Origin: a virus
Lineage: Duplodnaviria > Caudoviricetes
DNA length: 57,732 nt
Virus record (IMG/VR): IMGVR_UViG_3300049793_000038
Coordinates: 1-57,732 of that record
Strand: one strand, 5' to 3'
Within the stretch, counting starts at the first letter, position 1; the number at the start of each line of letters is the position of its first letter. The notes below the pieces were generated by a model, which was not told where the DNA came from, did no database searches, and saw nothing but the letters and a program-made list of their open reading frames with translations. The translations under genes and the position numbers were made by a program. Positions 754 to 47,698 of this stretch are shown here, piece after piece.

Positions 754-866
754 TGAGAAAACATATTATTACTGCATTAGAACTAATTTATATTTGGTTT
801 ATTGCAACTCTTGCATATTTTTTATTAGGATTCTTTTTAAGTGAGGTACATGGATGGCTAATTTAG
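753..866 (+). CDS. Small membrane peptide (37 aa, not in ORF track)
   Basis: MRKHIITALELIYIWFIATLAYFLLGFFLSEVHGWLI; TAATG coupling to the upstream stop; overlaps the def start. Confidence 0.55.
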   Translation: MRKHIITALELIYIWFIATLAYFLLGFFLSEVHGWLI

Positions 867-1414
867 TAGCAGCAGATCACGCTGTAGTACGACATCCTGT
901 TAGGGGTGTTGCAGAGTTTGAAACTAATTATTTAGATAGATTAGAACATAGTCTAAGAGAAGTTATGAAAGAGAACAAAGGGGTTGGCATTGCAGCACCC
1001 CAGATAGGTGTACCCTTGTCGGCTGCCATAATTAGGATTAATGGAATAGAAATATTCGTAACTAACTTGCAGGTTGTAGAATCATTTAATTGGAGGATAA
1101 ATCATGAAGGTTGTCTGTCGCTTCCAGGGGAATCCCATTTGGTTCCTCGCCCAGCCAAGATTCGTATCACGTATCAGGATAAGTCTGGTCTATTCCAGGA
1201 TGTTCTAGTTTGTGATCCGGATGAAGCAGCGATTATTCATCACGAGTATTGTCATTTGCAGGGGGTGCTTATAGACGATGCTACAGAGTCTTTAGATCCG
1301 TTATATAACTATAAAGTTAACCGGTTCAACCGCTCGTTTGAACAAATTAAAATCCAATCAGAGATAGCTTCATCGTTGTCTATTGCCAAACATTCTTATA
1401 GAAAACATAAATAA
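854..1414 (+). CDS. def: Peptide deformylase
   Basis: All three PDF motifs present: GVGIAAPQIG, EGCLS, HEYCHLQG. Confidence 0.95.
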   Translation: MANLVAADHAVVRHPVRGVAEFETNYLDRLEHSLREVMKENKGVGIAAPQIGVPLSAAIIRINGIEIFVTNLQVVESFNWRINHEGCLSLPGESHLVPRPAKIRITYQDKSGLFQDVLVCDPDEAAIIHHEYCHLQGVLIDDATESLDPLYNYKVNRFNRSFEQIKIQSEIASSLSIAKHSYRKHK

Positions 1415-1429
1415 TTAATTATAACCCCC

Positions 1430-1457
1430 TTGACTCGGGTTAGGGAAGAACTATCTT
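1430..1457 (+). promoter_or_regulatory. sigma70-like promoter followed by a hairpin
   Basis: TTGACT-N16-TATCTT, then TTGTAGGGGG...CCCCCTTACAA. Confidence 0.45.
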
Positions 1458-1548
1458 ATATATTGTAGGGGGCTCAAACACCACCCCCTTACAAATCCTT
1501 CATATTATACAGCAAAGAAACTTATTTAAAAATATTATTAAAAACCTA

Positions 1549-1578
1549 TTGACTTTATACCGTAATGGTATATATTAT
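1549..1578 (+). promoter_or_regulatory. sigma70-like promoter
   Basis: TTGACT-N16-TATATTAT with an AT-rich upstream tract. Confidence 0.65.
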
Positions 1579-1610
1579 ATATTAGGTAGTGATGCAGTGG
1601 GGAGATTACC

Positions 1611-1922
1611 ATGGCTAAACAAAATGATGTGGTTGAGGGGACAGTTTGTAATTACTTGACTGTACTTAATCCAAAAGCAGCTAAGCGTAATGGAACTTGG
1701 CACGCGGAAGTTCAATGTGTTTGTGGGACCAAAAAGCTTGTACGACTTTGGAATATTCAGCATGGCGAATCAAAGTCATGTGGTTGTATGAAGGCTAAGC
1801 ATAGTTGCCCGTCATTCTATACAGGTAGGTCTATGTATGACCCAAATCAGGTTCCGGTTAGTAAGTTGGAAAAGGCATTAGCAGCTTTAAGAGAAATGCA
1901 TAATGCGAGAATTGTTGGCTAA
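1611..1922 (+). CDS. Cys-rich protein matching the N-terminal domain of the HNH endonucleases (no nuclease domain)
   Basis: CVCG...GESKSCGC matches CECG...GKTRSCGC (13167) and CVCG...GTTVSCGC (56392); lacks the DRxD..N HNH core. Confidence 0.65.
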   Translation: MAKQNDVVEGTVCNYLTVLNPKAAKRNGTWHAEVQCVCGTKKLVRLWNIQHGESKSCGCMKAKHSCPSFYTGRSMYDPNQVPVSKLEKALAALREMHNARIVG

Positions 1923-1944
1923 GATTTAAATATTCTATTTGTTT

Positions 1945-1970
1945 AGGGCTTAATAGTGAGCTCTATTTTT
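1945..1970 (+). terminator. Possible intrinsic terminator
   Basis: AGGGCTT-loop-GAGCTCT followed by ATTTTT. Confidence 0.35.
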
Positions 1971-1996
1971 ATACCCATTTCATAGGAGCCAACCAA

Positions 1997-2614
1997 ATGA
2001 ACAAATATTTTGATTCACCAGTCATTCTTGTTAATTCTGCATTCAGTGAAGACCTAACCGCTGGTTTCTTGGCTAAGATGAGTGAGCTTGAAGAAGAGAA
2101 GGAGGAGAAGGTTACGATAATAATTAATTCTCCTGGAGGTCAGATAGATGCATTAAAGACCTTGATTGATGCCATACAGTGTTCCCCTTTGCATGTTACG
2201 ACGGTTGCTTCAGGCTTAGCAGCCTCCTGCGGTCTGTTGTTGTTAATGGCTGGAGATCACCGTGCTTCATTTAGGTCAGCAAATCTTATGAGCCATATGT
2301 ATTCATCTGGGTCACGAGGGAAGTATCATGAATTGAAGGCTAGTCGGATCATCCAAGATGATACACATAGGTTCATGATAGAACATTATAAGTTGTACAC
2401 TGGACTGTCAGAAGCAGTAATTCTAAAAGACTTACTAAAAGAGGATGATGTCTGGCTAACCCCCAGCCAAGCATTGGAGTACGGACTTATTGACGAAATT
2501 ATCATACCAGACCACAAACCTATCGGACAGAAAGCTAGAAAGAAATGTGAGGCCGACCATGCAAAAGCGAAGGTCACTTGGGCTAAGCAAGTTATAGACG
2601 AAAGTATTAAGTAA
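1997..2614 (+). CDS. clpP: ClpP-family protease subunit
   Basis: IINSPGG, LAASCG (Ser), LMSH (His), EDDVWLTPSQALEYGLID (Asp region). Confidence 0.92.
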   Translation: MNKYFDSPVILVNSAFSEDLTAGFLAKMSELEEEKEEKVTIIINSPGGQIDALKTLIDAIQCSPLHVTTVASGLAASCGLLLLMAGDHRASFRSANLMSHMYSSGSRGKYHELKASRIIQDDTHRFMIEHYKLYTGLSEAVILKDLLKEDDVWLTPSQALEYGLIDEIIIPDHKPIGQKARKKCEADHAKAKVTWAKQVIDESIK

Positions 2615-2638
2615 ACTTTATATTAGGAGAACAGCATA

Positions 2639-3436
2639 TTGTCAGTAAATTTAAACATCGGAGTATTCTCAACAACAGCAGCCGCTTTATTATTAACAGT
2701 AGCATTACCATTAACCCCAATGGTGTCACAGTTCGCTAGTTCGGGTGTAACTAACCCGTCGGAGAATATAATACGCTTCGACAGCGCTTTCACTGGAGAG
2801 AGTACAGGCACTGCTAGAAGCATGATTAAGAAGTTTAATGTGGAGAAGGGCCCGCATGAGCGTATTCTTTTAGAGCTGTCGTCTCCTGGGGGGGAAGTAT
2901 TCTCCGGTAAGGATTTGCAAGCAACCATGAAATCTAGTTTACCTATTGATACTTACGTAACTTCACTTGCAGCGTCTATGGGAGCTGATACGTTTATGCT
3001 TGGTGAAAGACGATATGTAGACGAGGATGCTATGGTAGTGTTTCATGGGGGACACAGTGGGGATACATTAACTACTGAGCCAGTTTTAGAACGCCTTGTG
3101 AAGCATCTAGAAAATCCGGAGTCAACTGATGATAATTCGGATATAGCCCCTGCTATTTCTATGATAGATGCTAAGGTTGCGCAGCAAGGTTCGTATATTA
3201 CTCTGCATGACGTTCGTTCTACTTTGGATATGCTTAAGGCTATAAACCATGGGATGGTAACGCGCATTGCAGAACTTCTGCATAAGACTGATAGCACATG
3301 GACTAAAGAGCGTGTTCAAACTGAGCTGTTTGGTGACTTTAAAAGAGACATGATATTTACTGGTAAGCAGTTAGTTGAGATGGGTGTTGCTACAAATCTC
3401 AATGCACCAAATGAAGAAGATTACAAATCATACTAA
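2639..3436 (+). CDS. Second ClpP/crotonase-family serine protease with an N-terminal hydrophobic signal or anchor
   Basis: LSSPGG, LAASMG, VVFHGG, KRDMIFTGKQLVEMG; N-terminal TAAALLLTVALPL. Confidence 0.8.
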   Translation: MSVNLNIGVFSTTAAALLLTVALPLTPMVSQFASSGVTNPSENIIRFDSAFTGESTGTARSMIKKFNVEKGPHERILLELSSPGGEVFSGKDLQATMKSSLPIDTYVTSLAASMGADTFMLGERRYVDEDAMVVFHGGHSGDTLTTEPVLERLVKHLENPESTDDNSDIAPAISMIDAKVAQQGSYITLHDVRSTLDMLKAINHGMVTRIAELLHKTDSTWTKERVQTELFGDFKRDMIFTGKQLVEMGVATNLNAPNEEDYKSY

Positions 3437-10047: not shown

Positions 10048-10479
10048 ATGGTAATGGAAAAGCCTATTACAGTTGGTAAGTTAAAACATTTACCATATCC
10101 TAGAATGCTTATACAAGCTTTCCAGGCATTGTTTGATGATTCTGATGTTATTACGTTTTGGCCTTTAGAGTTAGGGACTGGTTTAACCGCTGTGTTTCAC
10201 ATTGTTAAAGTTCCAGACCTTATACTACATAGGTATGAGTTTGTAAAATCAGAGTTTATATTTATGGAACCGTACACAGATCTTTACCTTAGAGACTTTA
10301 TGGAATTTCTAGTGAGCATTGAAGAAAGGTTAGAAGGTGATGATTTATTGGATAAAATTAGTTGGTTGGATAATAGAACTACTGAAACAAAAGAGTTCGA
10401 AGCCCTCCGACATTTCTACTGGTATAAACACGGATATGCAGCCTATCCCTTTACAGAGGAGTCTAGTGATAATGACTAA
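10048..10479 (+). CDS. Hypothetical protein
   Basis: ORF fills the gap after the helicase; start uncertain (10048 or 10054). Confidence 0.6.
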   Translation: MVMEKPITVGKLKHLPYPRMLIQAFQALFDDSDVITFWPLELGTGLTAVFHIVKVPDLILHRYEFVKSEFIFMEPYTDLYLRDFMEFLVSIEERLEGDDLLDKISWLDNRTTETKEFEALRHFYWYKHGYAAYPFTEESSDND

Positions 10480-10897
10480 TCAACCCCAAGGCCTAAAGCA
10501 TGATGAAGGTAAATTAAGGTTAGACTTAATACCTCCAACCCTAGAAGAAGCCGTAGCTAGGGTGCTGATGAATGGTGCCTTGAAGTATGAAGATAATAAC
10601 TGGTTGAAGGGTGTACCGTTCTCAAAGAACTATGGTGCAGCTAAGCGTCATCTGGATAAGTGGTATCGTGGTGTTGACTTTGATGCTGAGTCTGGTTTAA
10701 ACCACTTAGCACATGCCATTACAGACTTAATGATGATACTACACTTCCAAATGCTTAACGATACCTCTTGTGACGACCGTCCGTACAAAGGTTTACCACT
10801 AGCTCCAGAGGCCTTACCGGTTGATGAACCTACTGTGCCTGAGATAACTGCACCTATTGAAGCCATTGAAGGGGAAACTAGTACTAATGGAAATTAA
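10472..10897 (+). CDS. dATP/dGTP pyrophosphohydrolase-like (DUF5664-type) protein
   Basis: KHDEGKLRLDLIP, GALKYEDNNW, RHLDKW, DAESGLNHLAHA; start after GAGGAG. Confidence 0.82.
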   Translation: MTNQPQGLKHDEGKLRLDLIPPTLEEAVARVLMNGALKYEDNNWLKGVPFSKNYGAAKRHLDKWYRGVDFDAESGLNHLAHAITDLMMILHFQMLNDTSCDDRPYKGLPLAPEALPVDEPTVPEITAPIEAIEGETSTNGN

Positions 10898-13167: not shown

Positions 13168-13718
13168 TGCCAGCAGAGGTATTCGGAGATGGGGACATAT
13201 TTGATCGCTTAACAATTATAGGATGTTACCATGAGAAAGTAGGTTTTAAGTGGAAACATTTATGTCAGTGTGAATGTGGGGTTGTTAAGTCAGTGTATGG
13301 CACAGATATGCAACAAGGGAAGACTAGAAGTTGTGGATGCCTAAATAGAGAGAGCTCTACTAAAAGAAATACGACCCACGGTCATGGAGGTATGACTGGA
13401 GGTAGTAACAATTCTATCACATATACCACGTGGCAATCCATGAAAGCTAGGTGCTATAACGTCAACCAGAACTGTTATTATCATTATGGAGGTAATGGCA
13501 TAACCGTTTGTGACAGCTGGAAAGATGATTTTGCTCAATTTCTTAAGGATATGGGAGAACGCCCCAGTAGGGATTACTGCTTAGATAGGGTTGACTCTGA
13601 AAAGAATTACGAACCTGGAAATTGTCGATGGGTGACTAAAGCAGACAATGCCAGGTTTGCAGTTATGAAACGAGAAGAAAACATTCGCAAGAGGAAAGAA
13701 TTAGATGAGTTCGAATAA
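13167..13718 (+). CDS. HNH homing endonuclease-like protein
   Basis: SCGC, WQSMKARC, YGGNGITVCDSW, LDRVDSEKNYEPGNCRW. Confidence 0.88.
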   Translation: MPAEVFGDGDIFDRLTIIGCYHEKVGFKWKHLCQCECGVVKSVYGTDMQQGKTRSCGCLNRESSTKRNTTHGHGGMTGGSNNSITYTTWQSMKARCYNVNQNCYYHYGGNGITVCDSWKDDFAQFLKDMGERPSRDYCLDRVDSEKNYEPGNCRWVTKADNARFAVMKREENIRKRKELDEFE

Positions 13719-14598
13719 TATAAAAGTGCTTAGTTTAGACGGCGGTGGCGTTCGTGGTTTACATACATTAGCAGTGCTACAAGAATTAGAAACAACTTAT
13801 GGGTTTAAAGTTAAAGATCATTTTGATGTCTTTGGAGGCACTTCAACTGGAGGCCTTCTAGCTGTTCTATATGCAGCTGGTTATGAGACCAGTGACCTGT
13901 TGAATCTTTATAATGTTGAGATACCAAAGATATTTACAAAAGGTGTGTGGCGCAAGGTGACCTCAGGGTTTGGCTTGTTTGATGAGAAGTATTCCAACAA
14001 AGCACTAAGTGCAGCGGCAATGAAGTATGTTGGTACCACTACAATGAACGAATTGAAGAAACCAGCATATGTTACGACAGTAGACATTACATCTACTATG
14101 ACCAAGGTTATTGGACCCGATAGCCAGATGCTTGCCAGGCTAGCGGTGTTATCTACATCTGCAGCGCCTACCTACTTCCCGCCTGTTAGTGTTGGGGATA
14201 CAGCATTAGTTGATGGAGGCTTGGTTGCTAACAATCCGTCAGTAGCGCTTATAACAGAAGTTATGAAAGACCATAAGCTAAAGACACCTGTGAAGATACA
14301 AATGCTTTCTGTTGGGACCGGTTATTGCCCTCATGGTATTACGTTAAAGCGGGCTGAGGGAATGGGCGCACTTGAGTGGGCCGGCCCTATATCGGGAACT
14401 ATGATGTCCGTGCAATCGGGATTCTATCATGACATAGCTAAGGTACTACTTGGTAAAAATTACCTACGGATTAACTCAGAGATGCCTCATGATGTCGCTC
14501 TTGATAGTCTTGACAAGGATGATTGGGACTTGCTTATGGAAATTGGTAAAGAGACTGCAAAGTCTACTTTGAAAGCGGACTTAGAGTTTATATTGTAA
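13705..14598 (+). CDS. Patatin-like phospholipase
   Basis: LSLDGGGVRG, GTSTG nucleophile elbow, SAAPTYF, DGGLVANNP. Confidence 0.93.
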   Translation: MSSNNIKVLSLDGGGVRGLHTLAVLQELETTYGFKVKDHFDVFGGTSTGGLLAVLYAAGYETSDLLNLYNVEIPKIFTKGVWRKVTSGFGLFDEKYSNKALSAAAMKYVGTTTMNELKKPAYVTTVDITSTMTKVIGPDSQMLARLAVLSTSAAPTYFPPVSVGDTALVDGGLVANNPSVALITEVMKDHKLKTPVKIQMLSVGTGYCPHGITLKRAEGMGALEWAGPISGTMMSVQSGFYHDIAKVLLGKNYLRINSEMPHDVALDSLDKDDWDLLMEIGKETAKSTLKADLEFIL

Positions 14599-17063: not shown

Positions 17064-17307
17064 TCCAAATGTATTTCAGTATGTAGCAACCTTCCTTGGA
17101 ATTATTGGTATTGGAACTCTTAATTTCTTTCCACGCTATATAAGATATGGACAGGTGACCCTTATTATGTGCAGCTTTTGTTGGATAATATATGGATTTC
17201 ATAAAGATGAATTTATGGTATGCTTCTCACAGGCTGTGTATATGTGCTTTTCAGGGATAGGTATCTATCGCTGGTCAGAGGTTAATATTAATGCAAAGGA
17301 TCACTAG
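17053..17307 (+). CDS. Small 3-TM membrane protein, possibly a PnuC-like half transporter
   Basis: Three hydrophobic segments; WIIYG...Q..Y.....G.YRW pattern. Confidence 0.5.
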   Translation: MTISPNVFQYVATFLGIIGIGTLNFFPRYIRYGQVTLIMCSFCWIIYGFHKDEFMVCFSQAVYMCFSGIGIYRWSEVNINAKDH

Positions 17308-17731
17308 TATGGATAAATTCGAACCGATACACCAGCACTTACTTATTAAAGCCATAGTTAACACAGTTATGACAGATCCTAAACAGTTTAAGAAGATGCT
17401 GGTAGCATTAGTTCGATTTCTAGGGATGAAGGCGGTTACCAGGCCTCAAGCAGTTTATATTACAGCGGATGGTAATGAGGGTATAACTGGATCCATTAAT
17501 TTAGCTACATCCCATATCGCAGGTCATGTATGGGATACGTCAGAACTGTTAATGTTCGATATCTATTCTTGTAAACCTTTCGACAGTGATGCTGTAGTTG
17601 CTAAGTTAGCATCATACTTTGATGGGTTCAGAGATGTACATTGGCTCTATGTTGATAGAGAGAAGTTCAATGTGGCTCTTTACAGAGCTGATAACCTTGG
17701 TAATATACCAATTGAGCATACTAAGGAATAG
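17291..17731 (+). CDS. speD: S-adenosylmethionine decarboxylase-like proenzyme
   Basis: HLLI, GITGSINLATSHIAGHVW (T-SH instead of E-SH), FDIYSCKPFD. Confidence 0.8.
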   Translation: MQRITSMDKFEPIHQHLLIKAIVNTVMTDPKQFKKMLVALVRFLGMKAVTRPQAVYITADGNEGITGSINLATSHIAGHVWDTSELLMFDIYSCKPFDSDAVVAKLASYFDGFRDVHWLYVDREKFNVALYRADNLGNIPIEHTKE

Positions 17732-18244: not shown

Positions 18245-19150
18245 ATGTTTAAAGCTATCTACGATAGAGCAAACAAGCCTAAACTCTTCTTTGTGTTTGC
18301 AGTATTCATTACTCTTCTTTGTAGTGAGGTTGTCTTAACAACACTGGTGCCTGCATGGAAGAGTTACTTCTATGATATGTTAAAAGATAAGGATCTCAAT
18401 GGTTTTAGTATTGGTATCTATTGGTTTGGAGGTTTAATCCTTTCATTAGGTTTGGTAGCTGGTATTAAGGAGTTTATTAGTAGGCTTTTAGCTTTACAAA
18501 TTAGAATTCCGATGTCTAAGCTTGTTCTTAAGACCTGGGTACATGCGAAGGAACCAGCTACAAAGAACTTTAGTCAACCACAAACTGAGTCTATCCGGCT
18601 GTCAACTGAGAACTTCGTAATAGTTGTGCGGGAAGTGTTTATATCCGCTATGGTAGTTATAGGTTTAGCAGTGTCTAATCTAGATAAGCCTAAGGTGCTG
18701 CTGTGTGCGTTCCTCTATACAGTTGCTGTATCTATATCAGCCGTATTCTTTGGTAAGCCCTTACGAGATAGTAACCGTAAATGGCAGGAACTAGAAGGCG
18801 TGTATAGAGAGTCACTGGGAGATATTGCTGCTGGTAAAGGTGATTATACAGCTAAGGAGAAGTTCCGGCAAGCATGTCAAGGATTTTTAAGATATACCAA
18901 TATAACTATGTGCTTCACTTTATTTAGTTCCTTTAAAGGCGGCTTAATGATGTTGCTACCTTATTTTATATTCTCTGCCGATTATTTTGCCGGTACTGTG
19001 ACTTTTGGTCAATTCATGGGGACAGTAACCACGTTTGAATTGCTGGTTATGAATGCCGTGGTGTTTACTACTGTCTATCCGATGTGGACGCAAGTCCGAT
19101 CCGGTCACGCTATTGTGAAAGATTTCTATATAAAACATTTACACAAATAA
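18245..19150 (+). CDS. SbmA/BacA (or YddA-type ABC TMD)-like multi-pass transporter, no ATPase domain
   Basis: About 6 TM segments; WKSYFYDMLKDKD, QELEGVYRESL, LPYFIFSADYFAGTVTFGQFM resemble SbmA/YddA TMD motifs. Confidence 0.7.
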   Translation: MFKAIYDRANKPKLFFVFAVFITLLCSEVVLTTLVPAWKSYFYDMLKDKDLNGFSIGIYWFGGLILSLGLVAGIKEFISRLLALQIRIPMSKLVLKTWVHAKEPATKNFSQPQTESIRLSTENFVIVVREVFISAMVVIGLAVSNLDKPKVLLCAFLYTVAVSISAVFFGKPLRDSNRKWQELEGVYRESLGDIAAGKGDYTAKEKFRQACQGFLRYTNITMCFTLFSSFKGGLMMLLPYFIFSADYFAGTVTFGQFMGTVTTFELLVMNAVVFTTVYPMWTQVRSGHAIVKDFYIKHLHK

Positions 19151-45889: not shown

Positions 45890-46299
45890 GTTACAGCATT
45901 CACTTTAGACGCTGCACTAGATGTAGAGCCTGATAGTACAGCTTCTAGTTTTAAGAACTTATTCTGTTCATCAAGGTTAGTGAACCTAAGTATATCGTAA
46001 TACTTACTCGCATAGCTTATGAATGTTTCATTGGTAACATCAGATCTATAGCGAATATAGAATATGTGTGTTGGCTGTACGGCGGTAGCACCACCTAGAT
46101 CAACCCCGTTAATCACTGAAACTGATTTAGGTGTTTCAATCATACTATAGACATCTGCAATTGTTGACAGCACTTCTGTATAATCGAAGTCACCCCCTTG
46201 GGGTGGTGTGAGTACACGTGTGAGTAGTGAGATCTTCCGATTAAGCGAACCAGCACAGAGTGTGTAACAAGTTTTGGAAAGAACTACTGATTTTACCAT
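45886..46299 (-). CDS. Head closure (stopper) protein
   Basis: AGSLNRKI, THIFYIRYRSDV, YDI..FTNLDEQNKFL. Confidence 0.82.
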   Translation of the reverse strand: MVKSVVLSKTCYTLCAGSLNRKISLLTRVLTPPQGGDFDYTEVLSTIADVYSMIETPKSVSVINGVDLGGATAVQPTHIFYIRYRSDVTNETFISYASKYYDILRFTNLDEQNKFLKLEAVLSGSTSSAASKVNAVT

Positions 46300-46946
46300 G
46301 AATATCTCCTATGAGGAGGGTATGGGACTAGTTCAACAATTCTATACGAATCTAATAATCCTCTAGCACCACTTGGGATACCTGTAGCACAAGGTCCGCA
46401 ACCAGCTTCTGCTGTACCGCAGTCTCCACGATTCTCGTATAGGTTGGCAACCATCATGGATATTGCTAGCTTAATAGCTGATGGCACGGATGCAGCTGCA
46501 CCATAACCTGCAGTGAATGTAATTCTAACTGCTTGTTCTTTATTAAAGACTTGTGGCCATATATATGTGGGAGCTAGTTTAATTCTAGAGTAAGCCGGAT
46601 CAAAGACCGTGGTGTATGTTGCAGAAGACAAGAGGGTGTTAACGTTACTTATGTCATCATAATATATATTAGTAATCGCTATTAATGGGGATCTACGCAA
46701 TTCTATGATGTCTTCAAAGTAATCTCGGTATGTGATATATGTTTTAGTTACGAAGTCTCTACGTGTGTAGCGCTCAGCTTGATCTGTAGCGGTTGTTATT
46801 AGAAGAGTTAGTAGAGTGTCATCATCTGAGCCAGTTATTCTTAATAATGTTTTTATCTCTGTTAAAGAAACAGGAAGTTCAGATGCAGCTGTAACTAACT
46901 TATACGGGTAAGCACATGGGGAGGTTGTATCTATATAGGATGACAT
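46293..46946 (-). CDS. Head-tail connector (adaptor) protein
   Basis: PVSLTEIKTLLRI..DDDTLL, ITFTAGYG, VPSAIKLAISMMVANLYENR. Confidence 0.88.
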   Translation of the reverse strand: MSSYIDTTSPCAYPYKLVTAASELPVSLTEIKTLLRITGSDDDTLLTLLITTATDQAERYTRRDFVTKTYITYRDYFEDIIELRRSPLIAITNIYYDDISNVNTLLSSATYTTVFDPAYSRIKLAPTYIWPQVFNKEQAVRITFTAGYGAAASVPSAIKLAISMMVANLYENRGDCGTAEAGCGPCATGIPSGARGLLDSYRIVELVPYPPHRRYSW

Positions 46947-47009
46947 GTGTGAACTCCACTAAAGTTAGCTTAAAATGAGGAATGCTAGTTAACGTCCAGT
47001 ATTAAGACG

Positions 47010-47077
47010 TGCACATGTGGGGCGTTAAGTCCACCTCCAGCGATCAATCACGCTGTACTACTCTATACGAATGTGCA
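47010..47077 (-). ncRNA. Degenerate tRNA-like cloverleaf
   Basis: TGCACAT/ATGTGCA closing stem; TC-GTAT..GTAC D-like arm; AGCG/CGCT arm; GTGG/CCAC arm lacking TTCRA. Confidence 0.4.
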
Positions 47078-47079
47078 GT

Positions 47080-47216
47080 TGGCCCCATCGGGACTCGAAC
47101 CCGAATTCCCTTCCCTACAAGCACGGAAGGATCCTTATTACTGCTCATGTCTTACGACATCTCAGATTTCCCATAGTGAGCGGTTTACAACTTCCAGCTC
47201 ATTAGACGATAGGGTC
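47080..47216 (-). ncRNA. tRNA-like RNA with an expanded D-loop and a non-canonical anticodon loop
   Basis: Acceptor GACCCTA/TGGGGCC; TC-GTCT...GGAT D stem; CCTTCC/GGAAGG stem with a 10-nt loop; perfect TCGGG-TTCGAGT-CCCGA T arm. Confidence 0.7.
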
Positions 47217-47227
47217 ATATTTTAAAT

Positions 47228-47698
47228 TTAAACGCCGTATGCAAACCAATGAATCACTTGGCCTTCTACAGTGTTATAAGTTGAACCATCAGCCACTACT
47301 AAATTACCTCCAGTGAAGGTTACATCAGCATCTGCTGTTACCACGTTATTTGTAGCATCTAAAACCATTACTTGAACAGTTGCAACAGTAGTTAAACCAG
47401 TTGCGATTGTCAAAGTATTAGCAACAGCCTCACCTGCGGTAGTACTGTGAGCACCCGCGGCAATAAGCTTTCCAGCTACAGGAGCTGCTACAACATAACC
47501 AGCTGTGTTCACTCCATCAATAGTGTTAAGTTCAGCAGCTGATGCTGTTACATCTGTGCTGAGCATGTTGTTAATGTCATCTGCTGTTGCAGTAACAGCA
47601 GTTCCACCTATTTTCCAGGTTCCGTCTAGGTTAAGTACGTTATCCGTACCTCCCCCAGCTGGTTGTGAGAAATAGTTTGCAGAAGTATTATTAGCCAT
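47228..47698 (-). CDS. Putative head decoration / head fiber protein
   Basis: Follows the capsid genes; VTATADDIN / VTASAAELN repeats; T/A/G-rich. Confidence 0.6.
   Translation of the reverse strand: MANNTSANYFSQPAGGGTDNVLNLDGTWKIGGTAVTATADDINNMLSTDVTASAAELNTIDGVNTAGYVVAAPVAGKLIAAGAHSTTAGEAVANTLTIATGLTTVATVQVMVLDATNNVVTADADVTFTGGNLVVADGSTYNTVEGQVIHWFAYGV

What the first reader, a model, noticed from the sequence alone, without database searches (positions are those of the whole stretch)
47080..47216. tRNA-like RNA with a ~60-nt structured D-loop insertion and a 10-nt anticodon loop
Seen on the - strand: GACCCTA TC GTCT [AA TGAGC..GCTCA ... ATGTC-GTAA-GACAT ... TAATAA] GGAT CCTTCC GTGCTTGTAG GGAAGG GAAT TCGGG TTCGAGT CCCGA TGGGGCC A. 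The acceptor stem (one mismatch), D stem and T arm are tRNA-like. The D-loop holds two extra hairpins, one with a GNRA tetraloop, the anticodon loop is 10 nt, and no CCA follows the discriminator. Established: tmRNA inserts replace the anticodon arm, not the D-loop, so this is not tmRNA. Inference: a tRNA mimic (decoy for anticodon nucleases, an RNase P processing signal in the late transcript, or a Y-RNA-like or virion RNA) rather than a decoding tRNA.
Basis: partly seen in the sequence, partly recalled or inferred. Interest (0 to 1): 0.75.

Follow-up and report, generated by a model that had tools for sequence, protein, structure and literature searches.

The report
Expanded tRNA-Glu-like RNA in a phage
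A soil phage carries, between its head genes and its head-tail adaptor gene, a 137-base relic of a glutamate tRNA that keeps the tRNA ends and elbow, has about 60 extra bases in its D-loop and no usable anticodon loop, and most likely serves as a cutting signal or small stable RNA.

Summary
On the minus strand at 47216-47080 lies a tRNA-shaped element: a 7-pair acceptor stem (one A.C mismatch, one G.U), a 4-pair D-stem, a 69-nt D-loop with two hairpins (one GUAA tetraloop), a 6-pair hairpin with a 10-nt loop, a perfect T arm, discriminator A and no CCA.

New here: its frame comes from tRNA-Glu. Its T arm and acceptor 3' strand match bacterial tRNA-Glu genes (84 of 108 sites). Its first 15 bases are the single best match to the tRNA-Glu 5' consensus in the whole 57.7-kb genome.

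Standard detectors reject it as a tRNA. ARAGORN's "tRNA-Tyr with a 54-nt intron" call is probably a misparse.

The host is bacterial, and I found no splicing motif. I found no homologue in 80 related viral records, and only the source run covered the element, so covariation and expression remain untested.

The closest known thing by architecture is phage T4 RNA C (species 1 RNA, 139 nt, function unknown). In 10 of 76 related phage loci the same junction holds a terminator-like hairpin.

Best reading (about 0.45): a non-decoding tRNA-like element cut out of the late transcript by RNase P and RNase Z. Main rival (about 0.3): an inert, decaying pseudo-tRNA.

The parts
47210..47216 (-). Acceptor stem 5' strand GACCCTA. 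The base before it (47217) is T, so U is at -1.
   Evidence: With the next 8 bases it is the best tRNA-Glu 5' match in the window.
47204..47209 (-). U8 and C9, then the D-stem 5' strand GTCT, as in tRNA-Glu.
   Evidence: consensus GGCCCCATCGTCTAG.
47135..47203 (-). Expanded D-loop of 69 nt, against 9 nt in the tRNA-Glu alignment.
47177..47201 (-). Hairpin 1 inside the D-loop: TGAGC, a 15-nt loop, GCTCA.
   Evidence: It is weak in the predicted ensemble (pair probability about 0.13).
47170..47172 (-). GGG between the two hairpins. It is a candidate for G18/G19 of the tRNA elbow (inference).
   Evidence: The placement is inferred from tRNA architecture and was not tested.
47147..47160 (-). Hairpin 2 inside the D-loop: ATGTC-GTAA-GACAT, with a GNRA tetraloop.
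   Evidence: Pair probability is 0.67-0.92.
47131..47134 (-). D-stem 3' strand GGAT.
   Evidence: tRNA-Glu genes have GGAC or GGAT here.
47109..47130 (-). Hairpin in the anticodon-arm position: CCTTCC, a 10-nt loop GTGCTTGTAG, GGAAGG. The loop can close with U-A and G.U pairs around a CUUG tetraloop.
47105..47108 (-). Variable region GAAT.
47088..47104 (-). T arm TCGGG-TTCGAGT-CCCGA, which contains GGTTCGAGTCC.
47080..47087 (-). Acceptor 3' strand TGGGGCC and discriminator A. ACT follows, so no CCA is encoded.
46947..47079 (-). A 133-nt spacer running to the adaptor gene start. It has a GGAG ribosome-binding site before the ATG and no terminator-like site.
47228..47698 (-). Upstream 156-aa ORF with no family match. 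Its stop codon lies 11 nt before the element.
46293..46946 (-). Downstream head-tail adaptor gene.

Best explanation
The element is a gene derived from a bacterial-type tRNA-Glu that no longer decodes. It keeps the parts that tRNA-processing enzymes read: the coaxial acceptor/T-arm helix, the T loop, U at -1, G1:C72 and discriminator A73. It carries about 60 extra nucleotides as two hairpins in the D-loop, and a closed hairpin stands where the anticodon loop should be.

It lies in the sense direction inside the late structural gene module, 11 nt after the last head-side ORF and 133 nt before the adaptor gene. It is therefore most likely transcribed as part of the late polycistronic RNA.

Host RNase P (5' side) and RNase Z (3' side, since no CCA is encoded) would then cut it out. 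That would separate the head-gene message from the neck/tail message. It would also release a stable tRNA-like RNA of about 137 nt (140 nt if CCA is added), comparable to phage T4 RNA C.

Shown: the anatomy, the tRNA-Glu ancestry, the position, and the absence of any splicing signature. Inferred: transcription, cleavage by RNase P and RNase Z, and any role of the released RNA.
For: tRNA-Glu ancestry:
- 84 of 108 genomic sites that share the T arm and acceptor 3' strand are tRNA-Glu.
- The 5' 15-mer is the unique best tRNA-Glu 5' match in the window (12 of 15; the next best are twelve sites at 11 of 15).
- The D-stem strands GTCT and GGAT flank 69 nt instead of 9.

Non-decoding:
- ARAGORN default finds 0 genes.
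- Rfam at gathering thresholds finds 0 matches.
- The best tRNA-clan match is 11.1 bits.
- The 10-nt loop is predicted to close around CUUG.

Processing determinants read directly from the sequence: U at -1, G1:C72, A73, a 12-pair acceptor/T helix with one mismatch, and a T arm that fits GGTTCRANYCC. That motif marks plant mitochondrial t-elements, which direct RNase P and RNase Z cuts at mRNA ends (PMC1920247, passages read). Bacterial RNase P is reported to process operon mRNAs and phage-induced regulatory RNAs (PMC4919922, passage read).

Position:
- The gap is 281 nt, while the median gap before the adaptor gene in 76 related loci is 20 nt.
- 10 of those 76 loci (7 distinct sequences) carry a terminator-like hairpin at this junction, and this phage has none.
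- The junction is therefore a recurrent transcript-punctuation point.

Precedent: T4 rnaC is 139 nt, with an acceptor-like stem, a long hairpin of about 60 nt in the D region, a hairpin with a 6-nt loop, and a perfect T arm. It is described as a late RNA of unknown function (PMC9697503 and PMC3014915, passages read).
Against: - There is no expression evidence. No RNA run was listed, and only the source DNA run covers the element.
- I found no homologue, so there is no covariation test.
- The fold is not more stable than shuffles (z = -0.95).
- The predicted ensemble gives the T arm and D-stem almost no probability. Such predictions are known to be poor for tRNAs, which is my own knowledge and not a call result.
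- The A2.C71 mismatch lies next to the presumed RNase P site.
- 66 of 76 related loci show no terminator-like hairpin at this junction, so the punctuation argument rests on a minority.
- The similarity to T4 RNA C is architectural only. Aligned identity is confined to the T arm.
Confidence: 0.45

Rival explanations
1. It is an inert pseudo-tRNA. On this reading the phage picked up a tRNA-Glu gene, insertions and point changes then disrupted it, and it now has no function beyond filling an intergenic spacer.
For: - It is a singleton. None of the 80 related viral records holds anything similar.
- The two departures of the acceptor 5' strand from a perfect complement are transitions, giving A.C and U.G, as expected from decay.
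- The anticodon is lost.
- The fold is not distinguishable from shuffles.
- The alternative long helix with the insert is no better than chance: 679 of 2000 shuffles match it against the whole hairpin, and 222 of 2000 against its 5' strand and loop.
Against: - Compact phage genomes usually lose useless DNA quickly, and this is the largest non-coding gap in the late module.
- The T arm and the 6-pair hairpin are perfect, and the D-stem still pairs.
- The extra sequence forms a GNRA-capped hairpin with pair probability about 0.9.
- The tertiary-contact bases U8, A14, a GG in the loop, A21 and the T-loop bases are all present (their assignment is an inference).
Confidence: 0.3
2. The released tRNA-like RNA is the point. 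It would act as a decoy or sponge for host tRNA-directed defences or tRNA-binding enzymes, and would be made together with the capsid genes.
For: - It keeps the acceptor/T-arm and elbow parts that many tRNA-binding proteins read.
- It lies directly after the head genes.
- Phage tRNAs have been proposed to counter tRNA-targeting defences (PMC10264068, abstract in a search listing only).
Against: - The anticodon loop, which anticodon nucleases target, is absent or closed.
- No defence or counter-defence gene was identified beside it.
- No test was possible.
Confidence: 0.1
3. It is a real decoding tRNA interrupted by an intron. One version is ARAGORN's tRNA-Tyr(GUA) with a 54-nt insert after position 37. 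The other is a tRNA with a D-loop intron.
For: - ARAGORN with introns calls tRNA-Tyr(GTA) at 47217-47078. Its spliced loop TTGTAAC has U33, anticodon GUA and A37.
- Archaeal-type tRNA genes with D-loop inserts at the same place exist (L188 and L193).
Against: - When the 3' 51 nt are kept and everything upstream is shuffled, ARAGORN still calls a tRNA in 36 of 400 trials.
- The Tyr parse has a D-stem with one Watson-Crick pair, and a 20-nt variable region drawn without a stem.
- The Tyr parse ignores the tRNA-Glu D-stem.
- 54-69 nt is far too short for a group I intron, and no intron family matched.
- I could not draw a bulge-helix-bulge motif at either insert boundary (read by hand).
- The phage encodes peptide deformylase and ClpP, which points to a bacterial host without a splicing endonuclease.
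- After removal of the D-loop insert, the 10-nt loop would remain.
Confidence: 0.05
4. It is a phage attachment-site remnant, that is, a copy of the 3' part of a host tRNA-Glu gene used for integration.
For: Partial tRNA-Glu 3' halves next to unrelated DNA occur in bacterial genomes (L084, L130, L135, L164).
Against: - Both halves of the tRNA are present, including the 5' 15-mer.
- The site lies inside the structural operon.
- No integrase appeared among the 47 window ORFs scanned. Not every ORF was scanned.
- The gene content looks virulent: its own PolA, primase-helicase and ribonucleotide reductase.
Confidence: 0.02

Closest known systems
Phage T4 RNA C (species 1 RNA, rnaC; AF158101 70908-71046)
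   Same: - It is a phage-encoded RNA of about 140 nt (139 against 137).
- It has an acceptor-like terminal stem, a perfect T arm directly before the 3' strand, a long hairpin of about 60 nt in the D region, and a hairpin with a non-7-nt loop in the anticodon position.
- It is not in Rfam.
- It is described as a late RNA of unknown function (PMC9697503 and PMC3014915, passages).
   Different: - No sequence homology beyond the T arm.
- T4 RNA C lies in the tRNA gene cluster, not in the structural operon.
- Its fold is strongly significant (z = -4.6), against -0.95 here.
- Its D region is one long hairpin, not a D-stem enclosing two hairpins.
Bacterial tRNA-Glu
   Same: - The 5' 15-mer matches 12 of 15.
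- U8 and C9 are present.
- The D-stem is G10-U13/G22-U25, with U11-A24 and U13.G22.
- The T arm, acceptor 3' strand and discriminator A match.
   Different: - The D-loop is 69 nt, not 9.
- There is no YUC anticodon.
- The loop is 10 nt, not 7.
- It has an A2.C71 mismatch.
- ARAGORN default and Rfam thresholds do not detect it.
Plant mitochondrial t-elements
   Same: They are non-canonical tRNA-like structures with a conserved GGTTCRANYCC T arm. They lie between or beside coding regions, and their ends coincide with mRNA ends made by RNase P and RNase Z (PMC1920247, passages). This element has GGTTCGAGTCC and sits between two coding regions.
   Different: The genetic system is different, and t-elements are about tRNA-sized. 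Cleavage here is untested.
mascRNA/menRNA (tRNA-like 3'-end elements of MALAT1 and MEN-beta)
   Same: They are tRNA-like structures cut from a long transcript by RNase P and RNase Z to give a small RNA (PMC4919922, passage). This was the best Rfam near-match here: 16.1 bits, E = 2.8.
   Different: The score is far below the 42.5-bit threshold and rests on the generic T arm and stem. The family is vertebrate, so the element is not a member.
Expanded tRNA-Glu-like genes found here (L202:4568-4690, L202:4197-4302, L182:2381-2497)
   Same: They share the tRNA-Glu 5' end, D-stem, T arm and acceptor, and each has a large extra structured segment. L202:4568-4690 has a D-loop insert of about 50 nt.
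   Different: - The L202 genes keep a normal UUC anticodon arm.
- The L182 insert replaces the anticodon arm.
- The inserts are unrelated in sequence, and the contigs are unrelated to this phage.
- The origin of L202 is unknown.
tmRNA
   Same: It has a tRNA-like acceptor and T arm with a large insert.
   Different: - The tmRNA insert replaces the anticodon arm and carries a tag reading frame.
- ARAGORN finds no tmRNA here.
- Rfam tmRNA matches only 15 nt, at 11.1 bits against 47.

Membership tests
Canonical tRNA (Rfam RF00005 / ARAGORN) | Detected by standard tRNA models | tested here: not met
   ARAGORN default finds 0 genes. Rfam at gathering thresholds finds 0 matches. With E up to 10, the kept tRNA-clan match is 11.1 bits and a lower-scoring one was dropped.
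Canonical tRNA (Rfam RF00005 / ARAGORN) | Acceptor stem of 7 pairs and T arm of 5 pairs with a 7-nt TTCRANY loop | tested here: met
   5 Watson-Crick pairs, 1 G.U and 1 A.C in the acceptor stem, and a perfect T arm.
Canonical tRNA (Rfam RF00005 / ARAGORN) | D-loop of about 7-11 nt | tested here: not met
   69 nt.
Canonical tRNA (Rfam RF00005 / ARAGORN) | Anticodon loop of 7 nt with U33 and a purine at 37 | tested here: not met
   The loop GTGCTTGTAG is 10 nt and is predicted to close to a tetraloop.
tRNA-Glu lineage (descent, not function) | tRNA-Glu-specific 5' end and D-stem (GGCCCYATCGTCTAR ... GGAY) | tested here: met
   12 of 15, the unique best site in the window, against alignment A2 of 16 tRNA-Glu genes.
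tRNA-Glu lineage (descent, not function) | T arm and acceptor 3' strand shared with tRNA-Glu | tested here: met
   84 of 108 sites that match the pattern are tRNA-Glu. The CM hit of 24.4 bits, E = 7e-4 is partly circular, because the model sequences were selected with this pattern.
tRNA-Glu lineage (descent, not function) | YUC anticodon | tested here: not met
   No TTC or CTC sits in a 7-nt loop.
Intron-containing tRNA | Group I intron core, or a bulge-helix-bulge motif at the insert boundaries | tested here: not met
   No intron family matched. The insert is 54-69 nt. I found no bulge-helix-bulge motif by hand at either boundary. The hand check is not exhaustive.
tmRNA | tmRNA model match and a tag reading frame | tested here: not met
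T4 RNA C-like phage stable RNA | Sequence homology to T4 rnaC | tested here: not met
   Identity is confined to the T arm.
T4 RNA C-like phage stable RNA | Architecture: terminal stem, expanded D region, non-decoding hairpin and T arm, in about 140 nt | tested here: met
T4 RNA C-like phage stable RNA | Accumulates as a discrete stable RNA late in infection | not testable with these tools
   No RNA run was listed.
t-element-like processing signal | Transcript ends made by RNase P and RNase Z at the element's borders | not testable with these tools
   Only the determinants are visible in the sequence: U at -1, G1:C72, A73 and GGTTCGAGTCC.

The most novel reading that the evidence does not exclude
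This would be an independent second example, in a phage unrelated to T4, of a class of expanded, non-decoding tRNA-scaffold RNAs. In such RNAs the acceptor/T-arm half is kept for host processing and stability, and new arms grown from the D-loop carry the function. One such function would be sequestering a host tRNA-directed defence or enzyme while capsid genes are expressed. If so, T4 RNA C, unexplained for 50 years, would belong to a general phage strategy.
Probability: 0.12. Interest if true: 0.75.

Novelty: new variant of a known kind. Interest (0 to 1): 0.42.

Why it matters
Phage tRNA-like RNAs that do not decode are barely understood. T4 RNA C and RNA D are still described as having unknown roles (PMC3014915 and PMC9697503, passages). 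An unrelated soil phage has a tRNA-Glu scaffold of the same overall build, placed where some relatives have a terminator-like hairpin. This gives a concrete and cheap test of whether such elements act as RNase P/RNase Z punctuation of late operons, and whether the excised RNA persists. It also shows that standard tRNA finders miss or mislabel such elements, as with ARAGORN's "tRNA-Tyr with intron" here. With a single copy and no expression data, the finding is a lead and not a result.

Tried and rejected
- Homologue search by exact pattern. The 30-mer and 24-mer of the T arm and acceptor gave 0 hits in viral contigs.
- Search through neighbouring proteins used alone gave 0 relatives.
- Search through an alignment of adaptor relatives gave 80 viral loci at 33-46% identity. 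ARAGORN found no tRNA in any of them, with or without introns. BLAST of the 281-nt gap against the whole records found nothing: 50 records with one 17-nt chance hit at E = 0.08, and 30 records with none.
- The closest adaptor relatives (P0002-P0005, 49-57% identity) exist only in Logan/ENA sources.
- Cultured phages: no DNA match. The best capsid identity was 36%.
- Sequencing runs: no RNA holder was listed. Run X1 is the probable source. Run X2 holds only fragments outside the element. There were no variants and no joints.
- General scans for tRNA-Glu genes with a large insert. The viral scan gave 2 loci: L181 is a chance hit and L182 has an insert in the anticodon arm. The metagenome scan gave 18 loci: 1 with a bacterial-type D-loop insert (L202), 4 of archaeal type with inserts, and 13 tandem or partial duplicates.
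- A riboswitch-like alternation between two folds is rejected as evidence. The alternative 12-pair helix is matched by 679 of 2000 shuffled inserts against the whole hairpin, and by 222 of 2000 against its 5' strand and loop.
- Repeats of the gap elsewhere in the genome do not exceed chance.
- A tRNA-Glu covariance model did not span the insert. It chose a local alignment of 47134-47080, so it says nothing about the 5' half.
- Self-cleaving ribozymes: no Rfam match at E up to 10. A hammerhead-like CUGA..GA stretch lacks the GAAA core (by eye).
- Attachment-site remnant: see the rivals.
- The script returned no rows because of a faulty filter. One search replaced it. One search was an empty script. 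One search failed on an undefined name and was rerun.
- Supplementary files of papers were not consulted. Supplementary Figure S7b of PMC9697503 (Northern blot of RNA C) may bear on the T4 comparison.

Full report
**What the window is.** The window is a complete IMG/VR virus record of 57,732 bp with direct terminal repeats.
- Its genes mark a tailed phage of a bacterium. They include peptide deformylase, two ClpP-like proteases, a family A DNA polymerase, a primase-helicase, PhoH, a class II ribonucleotide reductase and dUTPase.
- On the minus strand lies a structural module. In order it runs large terminase, portal, protease, major head protein, a 135-aa protein of PHROG 5707, a 156-aa ORF without family, the head-tail adaptor, head closure protein, neck protein and tail sheath.
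- No cultured phage is close. There was no DNA match, and the best capsid identity was 36%.
- The only run that covers the element is a soil metagenome, which is probably the source of this DNA.

**The observation.**
- acceptor 5' strand GACCCTA
- TC
- D-stem strand GTCT
- a 69-nt loop
- D-stem strand GGAT
- CCTTCC, GTGCTTGTAG, GGAAGG
- GAAT
- T arm TCGGG-TTCGAGT-CCCGA
- acceptor 3' strand TGGGGCC
- discriminator A, followed by ACT and not CCA

The loop contains TGAGC(15 nt)GCTCA and ATGTC-GUAA-GACAT. The element lies in a 281-nt gap (47227-46947), 11 nt after the stop of the 156-aa ORF. In the greedy ORF map, gaps within this late module are mostly under 30 nt.

**Is it more than chance?**
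- ARAGORN in default mode and Rfam at gathering thresholds report nothing in the window.
- With E up to 10, only the T arm registers: tmRNA at 11.1 bits over 15 nt, and mascRNA-menRNA at 16.1 bits against a threshold of 42.5.
- With introns allowed, ARAGORN calls exactly one gene in the window, here. It calls a gene in 2 of 60 dinucleotide shuffles of the window, both with introns over 600 nt.
- Thermodynamic stability is not distinctive (z = -0.95).

**The decisive evidence is homology.**
- A scan of one genome per prokaryotic species for the T arm plus acceptor 3' strand found 108 sites in 99 loci. Of these, 84 are tRNA-Glu (71 UUC, 13 CUC), 10 are other tRNAs, and 14 are not called as tRNA.
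- tRNA-Glu genes begin GGCCCCATCGTCTAG, and their D-stem is GTCT/GGAC or GTCT/GGAT. This comes from alignment A2, built from the 16 sequences of 73 nt that passed my length and motif filter, out of 31 distinct tRNA-Glu sequences.
- The phage 15-mer GACCCTATCGTCTAA is the only position of about 115,000 in the window, both strands, with 12 or more of 15 matches to that consensus. It lies on the same strand, 136 nt upstream of the only such T arm.
- Both halves therefore belong to one tRNA-Glu-derived gene. The D-loop is 69 nt where tRNA-Glu has 9.

**The ARAGORN call.** ARAGORN reads tRNA-Tyr(GUA) with a 54-nt insert after position 37. I regard this as a misparse, for four reasons.
- It uses a D-stem with one Watson-Crick pair, and a 20-nt variable region drawn without a stem.
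- It ignores the tRNA-Glu D-stem.
- When the 3' 51 nt are kept and all upstream sequence is shuffled, ARAGORN still calls a tRNA in 36 of 400 trials. With only the T arm and acceptor 3' strand kept, it does so in 15 of 400.
- No splicing route is visible. The insert is far too short for a group I intron, no intron or ribozyme family matched, I could not draw a bulge-helix-bulge motif at either boundary, and the host is bacterial.

**Structure.**
- The cloverleaf-constrained fold is -39.8 kcal/mol, against an unconstrained minimum of -41.8.
- The GUAA hairpin is robust, with pair probability 0.67-0.92.
- The 6-pair hairpin (probability 0.44) competes with an alternative helix that uses an upstream GGAAG (probability 0.55).
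- That alternative is no better than chance: 679 of 2000 shuffles match it against the whole hairpin, and 222 of 2000 against its 5' strand and loop. I draw no switch from it.
- In the constrained fold the 10-nt loop closes with U-A and G.U pairs around CUUG, which leaves no anticodon-like loop.
- One reading of tRNA architecture is an inference only. The two hairpins would sit on either side of a GGG that could serve as G18/G19, in the two D-loop pockets known to tolerate length variation. U8, A14, A21 and the T-loop bases are all in place.

**Comparative search.**
- I found no homologue. The steps and counts are listed under Tried and rejected.
- The scans did show that expanded tRNA-Glu-like genes exist elsewhere. 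L202 (a 4.7-kb metagenome contig, 40% GC, ORFs without any family) has one with a D-loop insert of about 50 nt and a normal UUC arm. It has a second with a 20-nt D-loop and a 28-nt variable region.
- L182 (a 62-kb viral contig) has one in which three hairpins replace the anticodon arm.
- These are unrelated to this phage and to its insert.

**The junction in relatives.**
- In 76 related loci where it could be measured, the gap before the adaptor gene has a median of 20 nt, and 16 loci exceed 120 nt.
- 10 of the 76 (7 distinct sequences) carry a GC-rich hairpin followed by a T run there. By the same rule, and by the tool scan, this phage has none.
- In a minority of relatives the head/neck junction is thus a point where transcripts are ended or trimmed. 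Here a tRNA-like structure occupies that place.

**Closest known.**
- Phage T4 RNA C (139 nt) folds into a terminal acceptor-like stem, a long D-region hairpin, a hairpin with a 6-nt loop, and a perfect T arm (z = -4.6). It has no Rfam family. It is described as a late RNA of unknown role (PMC9697503 and PMC3014915, passages read). Identity with the present element is limited to the T arm, so this is likeness of build and not membership.
- In function, the nearest documented analogues are plant mitochondrial t-elements and MALAT1 mascRNA. These are tRNA-like structures excised by RNase P and RNase Z, which defines mRNA ends (PMC1920247 and PMC4919922, passages read).
- A review of non-canonical tRNAs lists no large D-loop expansion in the 12 of 17 term-matching passages that I read (PMC7609411). 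Full-text searches for phage tRNA-like RNAs with D-loop insertions found no such report in the listings I examined.
- My recollection that T4 species 1 RNA and some other phage small RNAs are RNase P substrates is from memory and was not confirmed in a call.

**Verdict.** This is a tRNA-Glu-derived, non-decoding tRNA-like element with a D-loop expansion of about 60 nt.
- Best mechanism (0.45): excision from the late transcript by RNase P and RNase Z, which punctuates the operon and releases a stable RNA like T4 RNA C.
- Main rival (0.30): an inert pseudo-tRNA.
- Other rivals: a decoy function for the released RNA (0.10), an intron-bearing decoder (0.05), and an attachment-site remnant (0.02).
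- The element is a singleton without expression data, so interest is moderate.

Noticed in passing
window 10337-10897 (+): An ORF matches the N-terminal domain of dATP/dGTP diphosphohydrolase (PF18909, E = 2.8e-28). From memory, this family is linked to phages that replace adenine with 2-aminoadenine. I did not look for PurZ or DatZ.
   Followed up: no
window 854-3436 (+), 13705-14598 (+), 17291-17731 (+), 18245-19150 (+): The phage carries unusual auxiliary genes: peptide deformylase, two ClpP-like proteases, a patatin-like phospholipase, an S-adenosylmethionine decarboxylase-like protein, and an SbmA/BacA-like membrane protein.
   Followed up: no
L086:4137-4425, L090:2196-2351, L097:4403-4558, L108, L162 (Acidobacteriota / Thermoanaerobaculia MAGs): These loci hold tandem arrays, with a 133-nt period, of tRNA-like units. 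Each unit keeps the tRNA-Glu 3' half (T arm, acceptor, CCA), but a GC-rich hairpin replaces the D arm and the 5' anticodon strand. They may be the irregular tRNA polycistrons reported from soil Acidobacteria (a passage in PMC7609411; PMC5389517 seen only in a listing).
   Followed up: partly
L202:4197-4302 and L202:4568-4690: Two expanded tRNA-Glu(UUC)-like genes lie 270 nt apart on a 4.7-kb, 40% GC metagenome contig whose eight ORFs match no PHROG or Pfam family. One has a 20-nt D-loop and a 28-nt variable region. The other has a D-loop insert of about 50 nt.
   Followed up: partly
L182:2381-2497 (-): A 62-kb viral contig has a tRNA-Glu-like gene with normal acceptor, D and T arms. Three hairpins (about 66 nt) stand in place of the anticodon arm. 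ARAGORN with introns calls it tRNA-Val with a 45-nt intron. The fold z-score is -2.3.
   Followed up: partly
L188:1297-1431, L193, L195, L201: These are archaeal-looking tRNA genes with inserts both in the D-loop and after position 37. They were found by the same pattern.
   Followed up: no
L084, L130, L135, L164 (genome contigs): Isolated 3' halves of tRNA-Glu, running from the anticodon loop to CCA, lie next to unrelated sequence. They look like duplicated attachment sites of integrated elements.
   Followed up: no
window 47218-47162 (-): An 18-codon ATG reading frame overlaps the 5' third of the element. It has no Shine-Dalgarno sequence and is probably chance (read).
   Followed up: no
window 47080-47112, run X1 record 2: A 169-nt low-depth contig in the source run shares only the T arm and acceptor, with 3 differences, and continues into unrelated tRNA-like sequence. 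It is presumably a cellular tRNA from another organism in the sample.
   Followed up: no
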